In this document: positions 38,394 to 61,340 of the stretch, piece after piece | Numbering within the stretch: position 1 is the first letter of the stretch | How the letters are laid out: every line of letters begins with the position of its first letter | NCBI GenBank assembly: GCA_951406725.2 | Contig: OX597816.1 | Location: 94,054,001-94,118,000, forward strand | Length of the DNA: 64,000 bases | Direction: 5' to 3' | From: Octopus vulgaris | Lineage: Eukaryota | Notes under the pieces: generated by a model | The model's database searches: none | Told to the model about the DNA's origin: nothing | Seen by the model: only the letters and a program-made list of their open reading frames with translations | Made by a program: the position numbers and the translations under genes

Positions 38394-39277
38394 CGAGGTG
38401 ATATCAAAAAGTTCCTAGACTAGTTCAGTAGTGTGCCAACAGATGACAGCACACAGTTGCATGTGCAATGAGAGCTAGCAATGACCTTCATGACGTAGTA
38501 TGCCAAGTGACATTGCTGTGTTTACTTTGCAAGTTGTGAAATTTGTGTTTTTGTGATCGGGTGTATGCTGTAGTCTGTGATTTTTGTCATGGAAAAGAAG
38601 TTGGAACAAAAAGCCAGGAAATTTTGCATTAAACTTGGGAAGTCTGTTACAGAGACTTTGAGCATGTTTAGGCAAACTTATGGCAATGAGGCAATGGGTA
38701 ATACACAATGTTTCAGGTGCTTCAAAAGTAGAAGAATGTCCCTGGAAGACAATGAGCAATCTGGAAGACTGACCATGAGCATCACCTCCAGAAATGTAGA
38801 GAAAATTCATCAGCTTATGCATAAAGATCGTTGGAAGACAATCAACTACATTGCTGATGCTGTTGGTCTGTTGTATGCGAGCAATCCTAACATGAAGATT
38901 TTTCACAATGGCAATGCACCCTGTCACTGAGCTCTCTTCACTCATGAGTTTTTTGCCAAAAACATGGTATCACTTTCACACTCGTACTATATGTCAGATT
39001 TAGCACCTGCAGACTTCCATCTCTTCCCCAAGATGAAAATGCAGCTCAAAGGTTGCTATCTTAATACCATTGTCAAGATCAAGAGTGAATCACAGAAGGT
39101 CACTGACTCACTTATGGAAAACGACTTCCAGGCTGGATTCCAAAAGTAGCAGGAACACTGGGACCAGTGTATTGCTAAGCAAAGTGAGTATTTCAAAGGA
39201 GATGATGTTAAAACTTAGGTAAATAAGTTATTTTTTTATTAAACATAATGGGTCAGGAACTCTTTGACCCCACCTCG
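38394..39277 (+). mobile_element. Mariner transposon, internally deleted pseudogene
   Basis: TA-flanked TIRs cgaggtg..tcaaaaagttc / gaactctttga..cacctcg; decayed KFCIKLGKS, DNEQSGR, HNGNAPCH and SDLAPADFHLFPKMK motifs. Confidence 0.9.
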
Positions 39278-46650: not shown

Positions 46651-46733
46651 CTCTAAAATAAACTGGAGCAAAGCATTGTTACTGTTTAAAACAAAGAGCT
46701 GAGATTTCTTTGAAAATAAGCCATAGGCAGCAT
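46651..46733 (-). CDS. COG3: COG3 exon
   Basis: tttcag|ATGCTG...GAG|gtaaag; phase 1->0; xAAYGLFSKKSQLFVLNSNNALLQFILE matches the COG3 LNSNNAL motif. Confidence 0.92.
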
Positions 46734-48334: not shown

Positions 48335-48846
48335 CGGATATGTACTTGCATAGCAAGTGACCTGATCAGAGATCCTGTGCTGTATATATGAAGTTTGGAG
48401 CCTGGTGCAGCCATCTGGTTCGCCAGTCCTCAGTCAAACCGTCCAACCCATGCCAGCATGGAAAGCGGACATTAAACGATGGTGATGATGATGATGATGA
48501 AGCTATATCCCTTAATTTGCTGATTTTCTTTACATGAACGGAGAAGTTACATTGCCGAACTGTTATTTTAATGAGTTATATATATTTACCACCCAAAAAG
48601 ACACATCTGTACTGTGAACCAGTTGTTAAGCATCCTACCCATGAGGGATCAATGCTAGATGGGTCAAAAAAATTGTAGTGATTAATAAAAATTCTCACAT
48701 CTTCCATCTCTCATTAACCAAATATATATATATATATTTAAATACACATACCTACATACATATATACACACACATACACACACACACACACATATATATA
48801 AAGCATATAGTATTTTGCATTTGGAATCAGTTCTCATCTCTAGCTG

Positions 48847-53710: not shown

Positions 53711-55343
53711 TATATCTAAGGAGCTCATTTCTCTTCAAGAAAGAAATTCTGGAATCAAATACACATTATAAAACATAGGACAATGGAAGAGAGCTCTTGA
53801 TGTGATTTGTTAAAAATAGCAGCCAAATGTCCTCAAATCACATTATCATCTTTTAAAAAATGATTAATTGGATAATGTATTCCTTAGTGAATAAGATGAG
53901 ATGATCGAAGCTGGAACACCTTTGATAATCATAATTCTGCTTGAATAGAGCTGAATTGGAGCTAAAAAAACAACATTACAACAGTACCTTCAATGTTTAC
54001 TGGGGTCTCCTTTTGAGTACCTAATTATAATTTAGTAACCTAAGCTATTAAAAGTTAAGTGAATTTAACAAGAATCCAGCACAGCATCAATGACAAAATA
54101 TATAGAGTTGCATATTTATTGAATCAATAAGTTGTAATTTTCCAAAACACCTAAAATTGATCCTCTACTTCAATAAATGATTGCTAAAATCTAATATAAA
54201 TCATATGACTGTAATAATATACTTTCATTACTCATAAAACAGAATAGGAAGAGACACATGGGATGGAGAGTTGCTGAAGAGGTCACAGGATGTGTGACAA
54301 AAGATTTTAGACAAAAGACATAAAATAAGATTAATAATAAAGCTGAAGTGAAGACCAAGTATATAGTGCATGTGGTTAATTGGTAAAAGTATGACCATCA
54401 CCAAACATAACAATACAAGATAATTCTATTTCAGATTTAGAGTAGTACTGTTACATATGTATGAAACTTATTGAGTGAAATAAAAGAAAGTGTGAACTAT
54501 AAAGTATAGCTTAATTGCAGAAAGCTAAAATTGGATGAACTGGGATGGTACTCATCTTCAGTCAAGCTATCAATACTTCACGTAATTACAGTTTTACCCC
54601 ACTGACCAAATATACTGAACTCCTATTACTAGCCCAAATAGTAATAAGTAAATACTGTCCAGAAGTTATGTTCAAGACCTTAAGAAGAGGATCAAGTATA
54701 TCATAGATAAAAGTATTGTTAGTTTGCTCAATTATGCTTTAATCTTCTGATAAAATAGTAAAAGAAATCACAGATGTACCAACCCCTGGAGCTAACATCC
54801 AACTGTAGACACAGTTGATCACTTTCGCATAAATAAATAAAGCACAAACTGACTGACCCTCAATATTAAATGAGTAAAATGAACTGAGGTGCTCATTCAT
54901 AAGAAACATTATTATTAGAACAAACACTTTGATTTCATCATCATCGTCATCATTTAATGTCTGCCTTCCATGCTGGCATGGGCTGGATGGTTTGACAAGA
55001 GCTAGCCAGGCAGAAAACTGCACCAGACTTCTGTGTCTATTTTGGCACGGTTTTTATGGCTGGATGCCTTTCCTAGCACCAGCTACCCAGCAGAGTAGAT
55101 TGTGCTTTTTATGTGGCATGAGCACAGGTGAGGTCAGGTTTAGCATAGTTTTTACAGCTGGATGCTCTTCCAAACGTCAACCACTTTACAGTGTGGACTA
55201 GGTGCTTATAATTATTTACTTTCCATAAAATAACCTGGAAGACTAATTTCAAGTTGATTTTCATGGAACCAGAGATTCATAATGTCATTACTTCAAAAAT
55301 TAAAAACAGATTTACTAATTAAAAACATTATCTGCTACACTGA

Positions 55344-55439
55344 CATGCATAAAAGATTCTAAGATATTCATTAAAGTCATGCACATGGGATTCTGGAATT
55401 ATTTCATGGCCATGCATATTATTATTTATATCTCATGCA
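55344..55439 (-). promoter_or_regulatory. Cluster of four UGCAUG (Rbfox) intronic splicing elements
   Basis: CATGCA on + at 55344-55349, 55378-55383, 55411-55416 and 55434-55439, i.e. UGCAUG in the COG3 pre-mRNA; not within a microsatellite. Confidence 0.55.
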
Positions 55440-55474
55440 GTTATTTCTGTGTGTATATGAGGTCAAAGACTTAC

Positions 55475-55492
55475 CTACATGAAATTTAAATA
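55475..55492 (-). CDS. COG3: Candidate COG3 18-nt microexon
   Basis: U-rich tract ...tcttttgaag|TATTTAAATTTCATGTAG|gtaagt; phase 1->1, xFKFHV, consensus donor, four downstream TGCATG. Confidence 0.5.
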   Translation of the reverse strand, partial: YLNFM

Positions 55493-55743
55493 CTTCAAAA
55501 GATTTGTTATAACAAAAATAACAAAACGAAGAATCAATAGAACTAATGAGTGCAGCCTAAGCATTTTCCAGCAACTAATCCTTTAGAGCAGTGATGTACT
55601 AGCTCTATTACAATGTCTAGGATCATGCTTGATCTAGAACTAAGAGTAAAGTGAAAGTACATGGTATAGTGAAAGAAAAAGCAATATAAAAGCAGACATC
55701 ACTTAAACAAAAGAAAAACCATAACCATTGAAAAAAAACATAC

Positions 55744-55788
55744 CCCAAAGCAATCCCAGAACTGCATTTGGATTTGTACCTGTGAGGA
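55744..55788 (-). CDS. COG3: Candidate COG3 cassette exon (45 nt, or 36 nt from the acceptor at 55779)
   Basis: ttcttttatttctcactcag|TCCTCACAG|GTACAAATCC...CTTTGGG|gtatgt; both forms are phase 1->1 and stop-free (FLTGTNPNAVLGLLW or CTNPNAVLGLLW). Confidence 0.5.
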
Positions 55789-57361
55789 CTGAGTGAGAAA
55801 TAAAAGAATTAGATATTGCAAGAAAACCAATCAGTAATTATAGACAACACTATTTTTTGAGTTTACAGTTTACAGGTTGACAGTACTAAACTTGAAACCT
55901 TTGAAATGAGATATGTACTGGACTACTTCATATTTCAGAAAGACCAATGATTAGATAGTAGAGTCATAAATATAAGAAGTTCCAGCACTATTAGTGTCAA
56001 AATAAATCTGAAGATTTTTTTTTGAGAAGCTTGTGTAATAAGAAAGTAAACAAGTTTATTTAATGCCCATCAGTAAACCTGTTTTCAACTGCAGTTTTTG
56101 TTGTTGCTTAGCCTCACATTCACCCTGACTGAGCTGATCTGTGAACAAAGGTATTTCAACCATGAGCTGGATTGGCTTTGTTTATAAAGTACACAATCCA
56201 ATGTGTTTTTCCTGTTTTTTTTTCTTTTTTCAAGAAAGGAAAATGATTTGAAAGAGATTTGGTTGCTTTTTCTAGCAGGTCAGATAATCACATAGAGGCC
56301 CTTTTGATAGTTCAGTCATCTTCAGTTAACTGAGCTTTTTAATGACACAAAACAAGATAAAAGAGAATTAGGATTAGACAAATACCTGGAGTGGGGGCAG
56401 GTGAATGATAAGGAGGCTGTAGGCTAGAGTAATATTAAGTTAGTGATAGCTAATATTAGATATATTGGTTTCAAATTTTGGCACAAAGCCAGCAAGTTCG
56501 GGGGAGGGGGTAAGTTGATTACATCAACCTCAGTGCTCAACTGGTACTTATTTTATCAATGCCAAAAGGATGAAAGGCAAAGTCAACCCTGGCAGAATTT
56601 GAACTCAGAATATAGAGACAAACTAAATCCATACCAAGCATTTTGCCCAGATATATTATGAACACAAATTATATTCCATGACGAAAACTTTTACATTTGA
56701 CAGTTTCAAGATTCAGAATTGTCAACCTATATATTATAAATTATTGTCTTAAACAACCAAAAAATGAACTGCTACTTCATTAAAACACAAAATGTACGTA
56801 ACTGTTGTACATCATACAATAACATTTATATGGCTATGATATGTTTATAACACACTATATAAATATATATACTTGTGGTAATCATAAATCAGTTAATATT
56901 CTTTTATTCTTTTACTTGTTTCAGTTTCAGTCATATGACTGCAGCTATGCTGAAGCACCACCTTTAGCCACACAAATCGTCCCCAGGAATTGTTCTTTGT
57001 AAGCCTAGTAATTATTCTATCGGTCTCTTTTGCTGAACTGCTAAGTTATATTCATCAGACATTATAACATTCCTCTTTTCAAGAGAAGAATACCAGTCTT
57101 CGCTTGAATAAAGGAGTCGGACCTACAGTAATAACTTCATCTGACTATTCACTAGTTGCTTACCTATGATTTTATGCATATATCACCTGTCTATTATGGT
57201 TATTATGTATCTCTTGGCTTCCTGAAAGAACTTTTGAGATAAAGCATTACATAATTTCAATATCTATTGTTTTCTTTATTTTTATTCTGTATTTTTGTAC
57301 TTCATGTAAATGTATGTATCAAGCCTAATTGTTTCTCAACCTTACAACACATACATAATTT

Positions 57362-57961: not shown

Positions 57962-58041
57962 CATACACTTTATGTCTATATGTATCTTTCTCTCTATCGC
58001 TCTCTCTCATATATAGATTCATTATATACACACACACACAC

Positions 58042-58710
58042 ATCATCATCATCATCATCGTCGTTTAACGTCCGTTCTCCATGCTAGCATGGGTTGGACG
58101 GTTCGACCGGGGTTCTGGGAAGCCAGAAGGCTGCACCAGGCTCCAGTCTAATCTGGCAATGTTTCTACAGCTGGATGCCCTTCCTAACGCCAACCACTCC
58201 GTGAGTGTAGTGGGTGCTTTTTACGTGCCACCTGCACAGGTGCCAGGTGGGGCTGGCAACGGCCACGGTCAGATTGGTGTATTTTATGTGCCACCGGCAC
58301 GGAAGCCAGTCGAGGCGGTGCTGGCATCGGCCGCGAGTCGGATAGTGCTTTTTACGTACCACCAGACCAGGGATCCTGGCTGGTTCAATTCGATTTCGAT
58401 TTCGCTTGTCCCAACATGTCTTCACAAGCAAAGGGGTTGGCAGGTGCCTGTCGTACGGTCGCATTGAGTTTTACGTGCCACGGCCACGAGTCGGATAGTG
58501 CTTTACGTACCACCAGACCAGGGATCCTGGCTGGTTCAATTCGATTTCGATTTCGCTTGCCCCAACATGTCTTCACAAGCAAAGGGGGTTGGCATGGGTG
58601 CCTGTCGTACGGTCGCATTGGAGTATTTTACGTGCCACGGCCACGAGTCGGATAGTGCTTTTTACGTACCACCAGGCCAGGGATCCTGGCTGGTTCAATT
58701 CGGTTTCGAT
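58042..58710 (-). mobile_element. RTE-related 3' UTR fragment with ~155-bp internal repeats
   Basis: Shares the (GAT)n tail and ~170-bp terminus with 62102-62275; gagtcggatagtgc...ggttcaattcg recurs near 58336, 58488 and 58646. Confidence 0.8.
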
Positions 58711-61219: not shown

Positions 61220-61340
61220 ATTTCATTTTGCTAAAATCCAATGATGTTTCTCTAATACTAAAATCAGCCTGGAATGGTGCAATCTGTTCTCGTAGAATCA
61301 GTAAATGTTTTATCATAAACATCTGACCATCTAGTAAGGT
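61220..61340 (-). CDS. COG3: Conserved oligomeric Golgi complex subunit 3, internal exon
   Basis: ttaaag|ACC...AAAT|gtgagt; [40 protein letters not shown] contains the COG3/Sec34 hallmark [14 protein letters not shown]; phase 0->1. Confidence 0.95.

What the first reader, a model, noticed from the sequence alone, without database searches (positions are those of the whole stretch)
55344..55492. 18-nt candidate microexon in COG3 followed by four Rbfox UGCAUG motifs
Seen: on the - strand, inside the 14.5-kb phase-1 intron, a U-rich tract and AAG acceptor precede TATTTAAATTTCATGTAG, then a consensus GTAAGT donor. The 18 nt are phase 1->1 and stop-free (L/V-FKFHV). Four UGCAUG hexamers lie within ~35-130 nt downstream in non-repetitive sequence. 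Known: downstream UGCAUG clusters mark Rbfox-activated neural/muscle cassette exons. Inference: a tissue-regulated microexon remodels a Golgi tethering subunit that I know only as a constitutive housekeeping gene. Alternative: the TAG|GTAAGT junction is a zero-length recursive splice site.
Basis: partly seen in the sequence, partly recalled or inferred. Interest (0 to 1): 0.72.

Follow-up and report, generated by a model that had tools for sequence, protein, structure and literature searches.

The report
Second mini-exon beside mollusc COG3 switch
An octopus gene for the Golgi-tethering protein COG3 splices an optional 45-base exon with counterparts across molluscs, and 250 bases further on lies a likely second, 18-base optional exon with predicted tissue-specific splicing signals, which none of the transcripts checked contained.

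Summary
In detail: AAG | 18 nt (55492-55475, minus strand) | GTAAGT, in frame, then four TGCATG at +36 to +131, inside a 14,486-nt COG3 intron of an Octopus genome. It is the only non-microsatellite four-motif cluster in 528 kb of strand scanned. A is in Octopus gene models, in unnamed squid-like transcript proteins, and is joined to the next exon in two RNA runs, while a third run skips it. Chiton, snails and bivalves carry 6-16-residue inserts at the same point. The 18-mer (exon B) was in 0 of 15 cephalopod proteins and 0 of 3 informative runs, all of unknown tissue. Best reading (0.5): B is a second, Rbfox-activated microexon of restricted use. Main rival (0.28): the motifs enhance A and B is unused. 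Recursive splicing is unlikely (0.07). New member of a known kind.

The parts
61220..61340 (-). Upstream COG3 exon (121 nt); ends in T, so skipping gives Tyr where other molluscs have Asp; donor AAT|GTGAGT, 6 of 9 matches to the U1 consensus
55789..55847 (-). Acceptor region of exon A: 59-nt AG-free zone, TGC at -32, CTAAT branch-like motif at -24, CU-rich tract
   Evidence: sequence; function inferred
55744..55788 (-).
   Evidence: Octopus isoform X1 models and unnamed transcript proteins; RNA contigs of runs X1 and X4
55780..55788 (-). 9-nt short form of exon A through an internal donor CAG|GTACAA (3 residues)
   Evidence: Octopus bimaculoides and O. sinensis isoform X2 models; not seen in the runs laid
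55624..55629 (-). Single AGCATG, 115 nt downstream of the exon A donor and upstream of exon B
55493..55542 (-). Acceptor region of candidate exon B: 48-nt AG-free zone, 59% T, weak AAG acceptor, no TGC near the splice site, no CTAAY
55475..55492 (-). Candidate exon B: 18 nt, phase 1 to 1, stop-free (LFKFHV); predicted, not seen in transcripts
   Evidence: negative
55469..55474 (-). Donor TAG|GTAAGT, 8 of 9 matches to the U1 consensus, the best of the five donors scored around it; the only AG|GTAAGT in the window on either strand
55344..55439 (-). Four TGCATG (55439-55434, 55416-55411, 55383-55378, 55349-55344) in non-repetitive sequence; predicted Rbfox enhancer
   Evidence: all four kept in organism D
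46651..46733 (-). Downstream COG3 exon (83 nt)

Best explanation
This octopus COG3 intron holds a spliced optional exon (A, 45 or 9 bases) and, 251 bases downstream, a likely second optional exon (B, 18 bases) whose inclusion would be switched on by Rbfox bound to the four UGCAUG motifs just behind its donor. Shown: A is included in some samples and skipped in others, and joins the next exon without B. Inferred: B has a weak acceptor and is skipped by default; where Rbfox is abundant (muscle, heart or some neurons, by analogy with other animals) binding at +36 to +131 would promote use of the strong donor and define the 18-nt exon, adding LFKFHV to a predicted loop-and-helix cap between two strands in the C-terminal domain of COG3. 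The same motifs may also help A from 305-400 nt away. B would be an alternative to A at the same protein site (either one, or both in tandem, keeps the frame).
For: Cluster, strong donor, in-frame acceptor and 48-nt AG-free zone coincide far beyond background. The motifs sit at the usual activating position for B's donor, 36-131 nt, and 305-400 nt from A's (downstream TGCATG marks alternatively spliced micro-exons, PMC4317164, passages; downstream binding activates, PMC11874969, passages). This protein position tolerates 3-16-residue inserts in 47 of 336 scored proteins, every named one a mollusc, including 18-nt inserts in oysters and 24-nt inserts in clams and mussels. B's peptide resembles the clam insert ELKFHNLV (local score reached by 0.9% of 4000 intron-derived peptides against the 7 short inserts). 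An organism D DNA contig keeps acceptor, exon, donor and all four motifs over 55210-55518 with one change, which makes the donor CAG|GTAAGT (depth 3.5, may be an error). A fox-1 homolog is reported by BLAST in an O. vulgaris transcriptome (PMC5736919, one passage).
Against: B is in 0 of 15 cephalopod or cephalopod-like proteins, although 5 hold A-45 and 2 hold A-9, and in 0 of 362 proteins overall. 0 of 3 runs covering the downstream exon join B to it; X1 and X4 join A, X3 skips. An X1 contig reads unspliced from A through B to 55452. A already explains an enhancer in this intron. The peptide resemblance is post hoc and fades in global alignment (5-24%). The one change in organism D alters B's last residue (Val to Ala). 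Conservation was testable only in genomes about 99% alike. No genome-wide enrichment of TGCATG behind AG|GTAAGT was shown (78 vs 52).
Confidence: 0.5

Rival explanations
1. The UGCAUG cluster is a distal Rbfox enhancer of exon A, and the 18-mer is an unused look-alike exon that happens to lie between A and the enhancer.
For: A is the only exon shown spliced here and the position is alternatively spliced across molluscs. All protein and contig evidence lacks B. Rbfox maps are drawn to 500 nt from the exon and distal GCAUG clusters are described (PMC11874969, passages). U-rich sequence behind A makes acceptor-like tracts cheap.
Against: A near-perfect donor with an in-frame acceptor directly in front of the cluster has a background chance of about 0.0007-0.012. 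A has its own neural-type acceptor features and a nearer GCATG.
Confidence: 0.28
2. Only B's donor is used: as a distal 5' splice site that extends exon A to 314 nt (frameshift and early stop, so decay of the message), or as a decoy site that delays removal of the intron.
For: The donor is the strongest scored. The extended exon is out of frame and has a stop after 28 codons, which would hide it from protein databases. X1 has intronic contig cover downstream of A but none at 55810-56159.
Against: Needs no acceptor, yet an in-frame one with a long AG-free zone is present (7 of 127 GTAAGT donors have one). The X1 intronic contig runs 23 nt past the donor without a loose end. Switching off a core Golgi tether in Rbfox-rich cells is unattractive (own knowledge).
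Confidence: 0.1
3. TAG|GTAAGT at 55475/55474 is a recursive splice site (ratchet point) that splits the 14.5-kb intron.
For: Juxtaposed AG|GT with a consensus donor; the change in organism D keeps YAG; a possible cryptic-exon donor CAT|GTCAGT lies 130 nt downstream, overlapping the fourth motif.
Against: As an acceptor the site is poor: another AG 16 nt upstream and 54% pyrimidine, against 48 nt and 70% for the 55492 acceptor. It does not explain the UGCAUG cluster or the in-frame length.
Confidence: 0.07
4. The whole arrangement, cluster included, is chance sequence without a role in splicing.
For: TGCATG is common in this genome (86 in the window); the loose pattern is not clearly enriched genome-wide.
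Against: Cluster P about 0.001 in the intron, unique outside microsatellites in 528 kb, and next to a proven cassette exon.
Confidence: 0.05

Closest known systems
RefSeq/GenBank Octopus COG3 isoforms (XP_029633683.1, XP_029633684.1, XP_029633685.1; XP_014774963.1, XP_014774964.1, XP_014774965.1; CAI9719671.1)
   Same: Same gene and same intron; they encode exon A (45 nt), its 9-nt form, and the skip form.
   Different: None contains the 18-nt exon B; they are automatic models with no tissue or regulatory information seen here.
Mollusc COG3 inserts at the same position (chiton, gastropods, scallops, oysters, mussels, clams)
   Same: In-frame inserts of 6-16 residues at the identical protein position, with matched insert and no-insert isoforms in many species.
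   Different: One insert type per species in the records fetched; no species showed two separate cassettes here. Genomic exon borders of these species were not available, so cassette status is inferred from paired isoforms.
RBFOX-regulated micro-exons (Li et al. 2015, PMC4317164; passages seen)
   Same: Exon of 51 nt or less, frame-preserving, TGCATG in the downstream intron.
   Different: Described in human and mouse with RNA and CLIP support; here inclusion of B and Rbfox binding are untested.
eMIC/Srrm234-dependent neural microexons (Torres-Mendez et al. 2022, PMC8797185; passages seen)
   Same: Long AG-free zone and weak acceptor (A and B); UGC, CUAAY branch motif and CU-rich tract (A).
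   Different: B lacks a UGC near the acceptor and a CUAAY motif, so B looks Rbfox-type and A looks eMIC-type; neither dependence was tested.
Drosophila intronic ratchet points / RS-exons (Joseph et al. 2021, PMC8605326; passages seen)
   Same: AG|GT junction with a consensus donor inside a long intron.
   Different: Weak acceptor context with a competing AG 16 nt upstream; no intermediate seen.

Membership tests
COG3 (Sec34) gene | Exons encode a COG3 orthologue | tested here: met
   Exon 61340-61220 finds named COG3 proteins with PF20671/PF04136; window exons match O. vulgaris record CAI9719671.1; 14 further exon hits lie upstream; model matches Exo70-type helical rods
Rbfox-activated cassette microexon (exon B) | 51 nt or less, AG/GT ends, frame-preserving, stop-free | tested here: met
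Rbfox-activated cassette microexon (exon B) | UGCAUG in the proximal downstream intron, beyond chance | tested here: met
   four at +36 to +131; P about 0.001
Rbfox-activated cassette microexon (exon B) | Included in mature mRNA | tested here: inconclusive
   0 of 3 informative runs, 0 of 15 cephalopod proteins; contigs drop minor isoforms and tissues are unknown
Rbfox-activated cassette microexon (exon B) | Exon, splice sites and motifs conserved in related species | tested here: inconclusive
   kept in organism D with 1 change in 309 nt, but background there is only 5 in 334 nt; no distant genome available
Rbfox-activated cassette microexon (exon B) | Inclusion depends on Rbfox and is neural or muscle specific | not testable with these tools
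   no tissue labels, no knock-down or CLIP data
Alternatively spliced micro-exon (exon A) | 51 nt or less and seen both included and skipped | tested here: met
   45 nt; included in X1 and X4, skipped in X3; three annotated isoforms
eMIC/Srrm234 neural microexon | Long AG exclusion zone | tested here: met
   A 59 nt, B 48 nt; 7% of intron AGs reach 50; constitutive neighbours have 35-80, so it is not discriminating
eMIC/Srrm234 neural microexon | UGC close to the acceptor and CUAAY branch motif (exon B) | tested here: not met
   nearest TGC at -62, no CTAAY
eMIC/Srrm234 neural microexon | UGC close to the acceptor and CUAAY branch motif (exon A) | tested here: inconclusive
   TGC at -32, CTAAT at -24, but the constitutive upstream exon has both too
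eMIC/Srrm234 neural microexon | Dependence on the eMIC domain | not testable with these tools
   needs perturbation data
Recursive splice site (ratchet point) | Juxtaposed acceptor AG and consensus donor | tested here: met
   TAG|GTAAGT
Recursive splice site (ratchet point) | Strong acceptor context | tested here: not met
   AG 16 nt upstream, pyrimidine 0.54
Recursive splice site (ratchet point) | Downstream cryptic RS-exon donor | tested here: inconclusive
   CAT|GTCAGT at 55344 would give 130 nt; read by eye only
Recursive splice site (ratchet point) | Splicing intermediates or sawtooth coverage | not testable with these tools
   only assembled contigs were available

The most novel reading that the evidence does not exclude
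Octopus COG3 carries a two-way tissue switch at one surface loop: exon A, an eMIC-type neural exon inherited from a cassette that has stayed at this position since chitons, snails, bivalves and cephalopods split, and exon B, an unannotated Rbfox-driven (muscle-type) 18-nt alternative used instead of A, so that three cell types run three versions of a Golgi tether thought to be invariant.
Probability: 0.2. Interest if true: 0.62.

Novelty: new member of a known kind. Interest (0 to 1): 0.42.

Why it matters
COG3 is a core subunit of the Golgi tethering complex and is usually treated as a single housekeeping protein (own knowledge). An optional insert kept at one position across molluscs while its sequence and length drift from 3 to 16 residues points to old, lineage-wide regulation of Golgi traffic by splicing, and gives a small, testable site. 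If B is real it is an unannotated exon and a clean Rbfox target in a cephalopod, where the paper searches found no such target described. If B is not real, the finding reduces to an enhancer for an already annotated exon.

Tried and rejected
Tandem duplication of A's 3' part as the origin of B: an in-register DNA alignment looked suggestive but was reached by 7.5% of 6320 window pieces, 31% of shuffles, and 6% of constrained shuffles; not supported. RNA structure linking A and B: z = -0.78; none. Three proteins matched looser B-like motifs but at unrelated positions. No listed run was on record as RNA and none had a tissue label; run X15 did not cover the exons. A high-copy repeat at about 56460-56630 swamped and hid 158 difference rows, so for organism C only four substitutions (55615, 55853, 55869, 55870) of 7, and none of 24 gap letters, could be placed with certainty. 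No relatives of this genome are held; a degenerate pattern for exon A found 0 metagenome contigs. PF12414 found nothing in the genome and rang in no control genome either: uninformative on Rbfox. No solved COG3 structure by sequence. The long-read annotation in the supplement of PMC9699675 could not be read as text. A look at a paper on COG3 RNA editing failed on a search term and was not repeated.

Full report
Observation. On the minus strand the window has a U-rich tract and AAG, 18 nt at 55492-55475, GTAAGT, and four TGCATG at 55439, 55416, 55383 and 55349. The flanking exons 61340-61220 and 46733-46651 bound a 14,486-nt phase-1 intron and encode COG3: the upstream exon finds named COG3 proteins and the window's exons match the Octopus vulgaris record best, so the source is taken to be an Octopus (inference). 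Inclusion of the 18 nt is in frame and stop-free. The stretch is single-copy.

Chance. In 500 dinucleotide shuffles of the intron none had four motifs in 100 nt, and uniform placement of the 15 real motifs gives P = 0.0014. In 528 kb of strand, the window plus 20 adjoining 10-kb stretches, this is the only four-motif cluster outside (TGCA)n microsatellites (1 of 3 clusters), and only 7 of 127 GTAAGT donors have an in-frame acceptor within 30 nt with an AG-free zone of 30 or more and 60% pyrimidines. The chance of such a site just before a given cluster is about 0.0007, of a bare GTAAGT 0.012; these criteria were set after seeing the site. Against: genome-wide, AG|GTAAGT followed by two TGCATG matched 78 times and the reverse-complement control 52 times, mostly in simple repeats.

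Cluster listings showed three Octopus isoforms, of 845, 833 and 830 residues, in both O. bimaculoides and O. sinensis, differing at exactly this junction. The insert maps to 55788-55744, a 45-nt exon (A) with an internal donor giving a 9-nt form, 251 nt upstream of the 18-mer (B). Of 15 cephalopod or cephalopod-like proteins (7 named Octopus, Sepia, Argonauta, 6 unnamed transcript-derived), 5 have A-45, 2 have A-9, 8 skip, 0 have B. Of 362 proteins fetched, 336 could be scored at this site (26 were fragments or read-throughs); 47 have an insert, every named one a mollusc: chiton 12 residues, gastropods 15-16, scallops 12, freshwater mussel 10, clams and mussels 8, oysters 6; 289 have none, among them the arthropod proteins and the one named annelid. 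None holds B's peptide. In cephalopods the upstream exon ends in T, so skipping gives Tyr where other molluscs have Asp, and any inclusion form restores Asp.

RNA. Twenty runs were guessed to be RNA, none labelled by tissue; I laid four on the downstream exons. Three covered them and showed the next intron spliced out, so they hold spliced RNA. In X1 and X4 (organism A, two studies) the letters beyond 46733 are the 3' end of exon A; in X3 (organism B) they are the upstream exon. Depth arithmetic shows a single contig per run over that exon, and in X1 a second contig of depth about 149 covering exactly 55744-55788. So A is included in two samples and skipped in one, and joins the next exon without B. 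One X1 contig (depth 3.1) reads unspliced from A through B to 55452. Contigs drop minor isoforms, so this is weak evidence against B in these samples and says nothing of other tissues.

Conservation. DNA contigs of two other organisms were laid on 55210-56700. Organism D covers 55210-55518 with one change and no gap: 55477, turning TAG|GTAAGT into CAG|GTAAGT and Val into Ala (depth 3.5). Neighbouring intron differs at 5 of 334 bases, so the test has little power. Organism C spans the region, but a repeat swamped the tables and its differences could be placed only in part. No distant cephalopod genome was reachable.

Anatomy. B's donor matches the U1 consensus at 8 of 9 places, against 6 of 9 for both donors of A and both flanking exons. 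B's acceptor is a weak AAG behind a 48-nt AG-free, U-rich zone without a nearby TGC or CTAAY; A's has TGC at -32 and CTAAT at -24, as does the constitutive upstream exon. The motifs lie 36-131 nt from B's donor and 305-400 nt from A's; a single AGCATG lies 115 nt behind A. TGCATG is the one motif over-represented downstream of alternatively spliced human micro-exons (PMC4317164, passages); downstream Rbfox binding activates, with maps drawn to 500 nt (PMC11874969, passages); eMIC exons have long AG-free zones, UGC and CUAAY (PMC8797185, passages). B's peptide shares KFH and a final V with the clam insert ELKFHNLV; local scores are reached by 0.9-5.7% of intron-derived peptides, global ones by 5-24%: suggestive only. 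A duplication of A into B was not supported. As a recursive site (defined in PMC8605326, passages) the TAG has a competing AG 16 nt upstream and 54% pyrimidines.

Protein. An AlphaFold2 model of the A-containing isoform (44-sequence alignment, mean pLDDT 77, pTM 0.56) gives a helical rod that matches Exo70 structures. The insert, residues 647-661, falls among short helices between two predicted strands (634-641, 693-700), where pLDDT is only about 43-53. That it lies in a protruding cap that could change a binding surface is a low-confidence inference.

Mechanism and odds. Shown: A is a cassette exon; the position is variable across molluscs. Inferred: B is a second cassette, skipped by default and included where Rbfox binds the cluster (0.5). 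Rivals: enhancer of A with B unused (0.28); B's donor alone used for a 314-nt stop-containing extension of A or as a decoy (0.10); recursive site (0.07); chance (0.05). The odds are my judgement: sequence statistics favour a working splice unit, and the absence from four annotations and three runs pulls it down.

Known or new. Exon A is already in automatic gene models. Searches for COG3 with microexon (2 papers), with alternative splicing and Rbfox (3 papers) and with isoform and cassette exon (2 papers) returned listings whose titles and abstract openings do not concern it; I did not read them. Searches for microexon with octopus and Rbfox with octopus gave no paper on an octopus Rbfox target by listing. 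Two relevant papers had no COG3 in the main text: bioRxiv 10.64898/2026.09.05.749416 (passages; supplements closed) and PMC9699675 (passages; data file unreadable). Their supplements, and splicing databases not held here, may list A or B. Verdict: real feature, new member of a known kind, interest moderate.

Noticed in passing
window 55780-55779 (- strand): The internal CAG|GT of exon A could also act as a second acceptor, giving a 36-nt exon that begins with GT (RS-exon-like); no record fetched shows it.
   Followed up: no
P0148, P0158 (Mytilus galloprovincialis isoforms X1, X3); corresponds to intron 46650-45154: A second 6-residue insert (KYRRLK) one exon further downstream in mussel COG3; in octopus runs X1, X3, X4 that intron is spliced without an insert.
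   Followed up: partly
window 48428-48499 with 58041-58112 and 54935-54996: Inverted copies of a dispersed repeat (88-89% complementary) flank exons A and B; pairing could loop them out or form editing substrates.
   Followed up: no
window 56460-56630: Very high-copy short repeat; tens of thousands of contigs in each DNA run match it.
   Followed up: no
window 47380-47363 (- strand): Another AG-18 nt-GTGAGG stretch in the same intron with two TGCATG within 150 nt; weaker donor.
   Followed up: no
window 64000-62800 and about 24158-22760 (- strand); 38574-38930 (+): Open frames that read like LINE reverse-transcriptase fragments, and one like a mariner-type transposase fragment (labels recalled, not searched).
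   Followed up: no
L041, minus strand offset 2594: AG-9 nt-GTAAGT with a 98-nt AG-free zone and one TGCATG behind it: a microexon-like site in neighbouring DNA outside COG3.
   Followed up: no
P0169 (Gigantopelta aegis isoform X3): A model in which the insert shifts frame and truncates COG3 at 709 residues.
   Followed up: no
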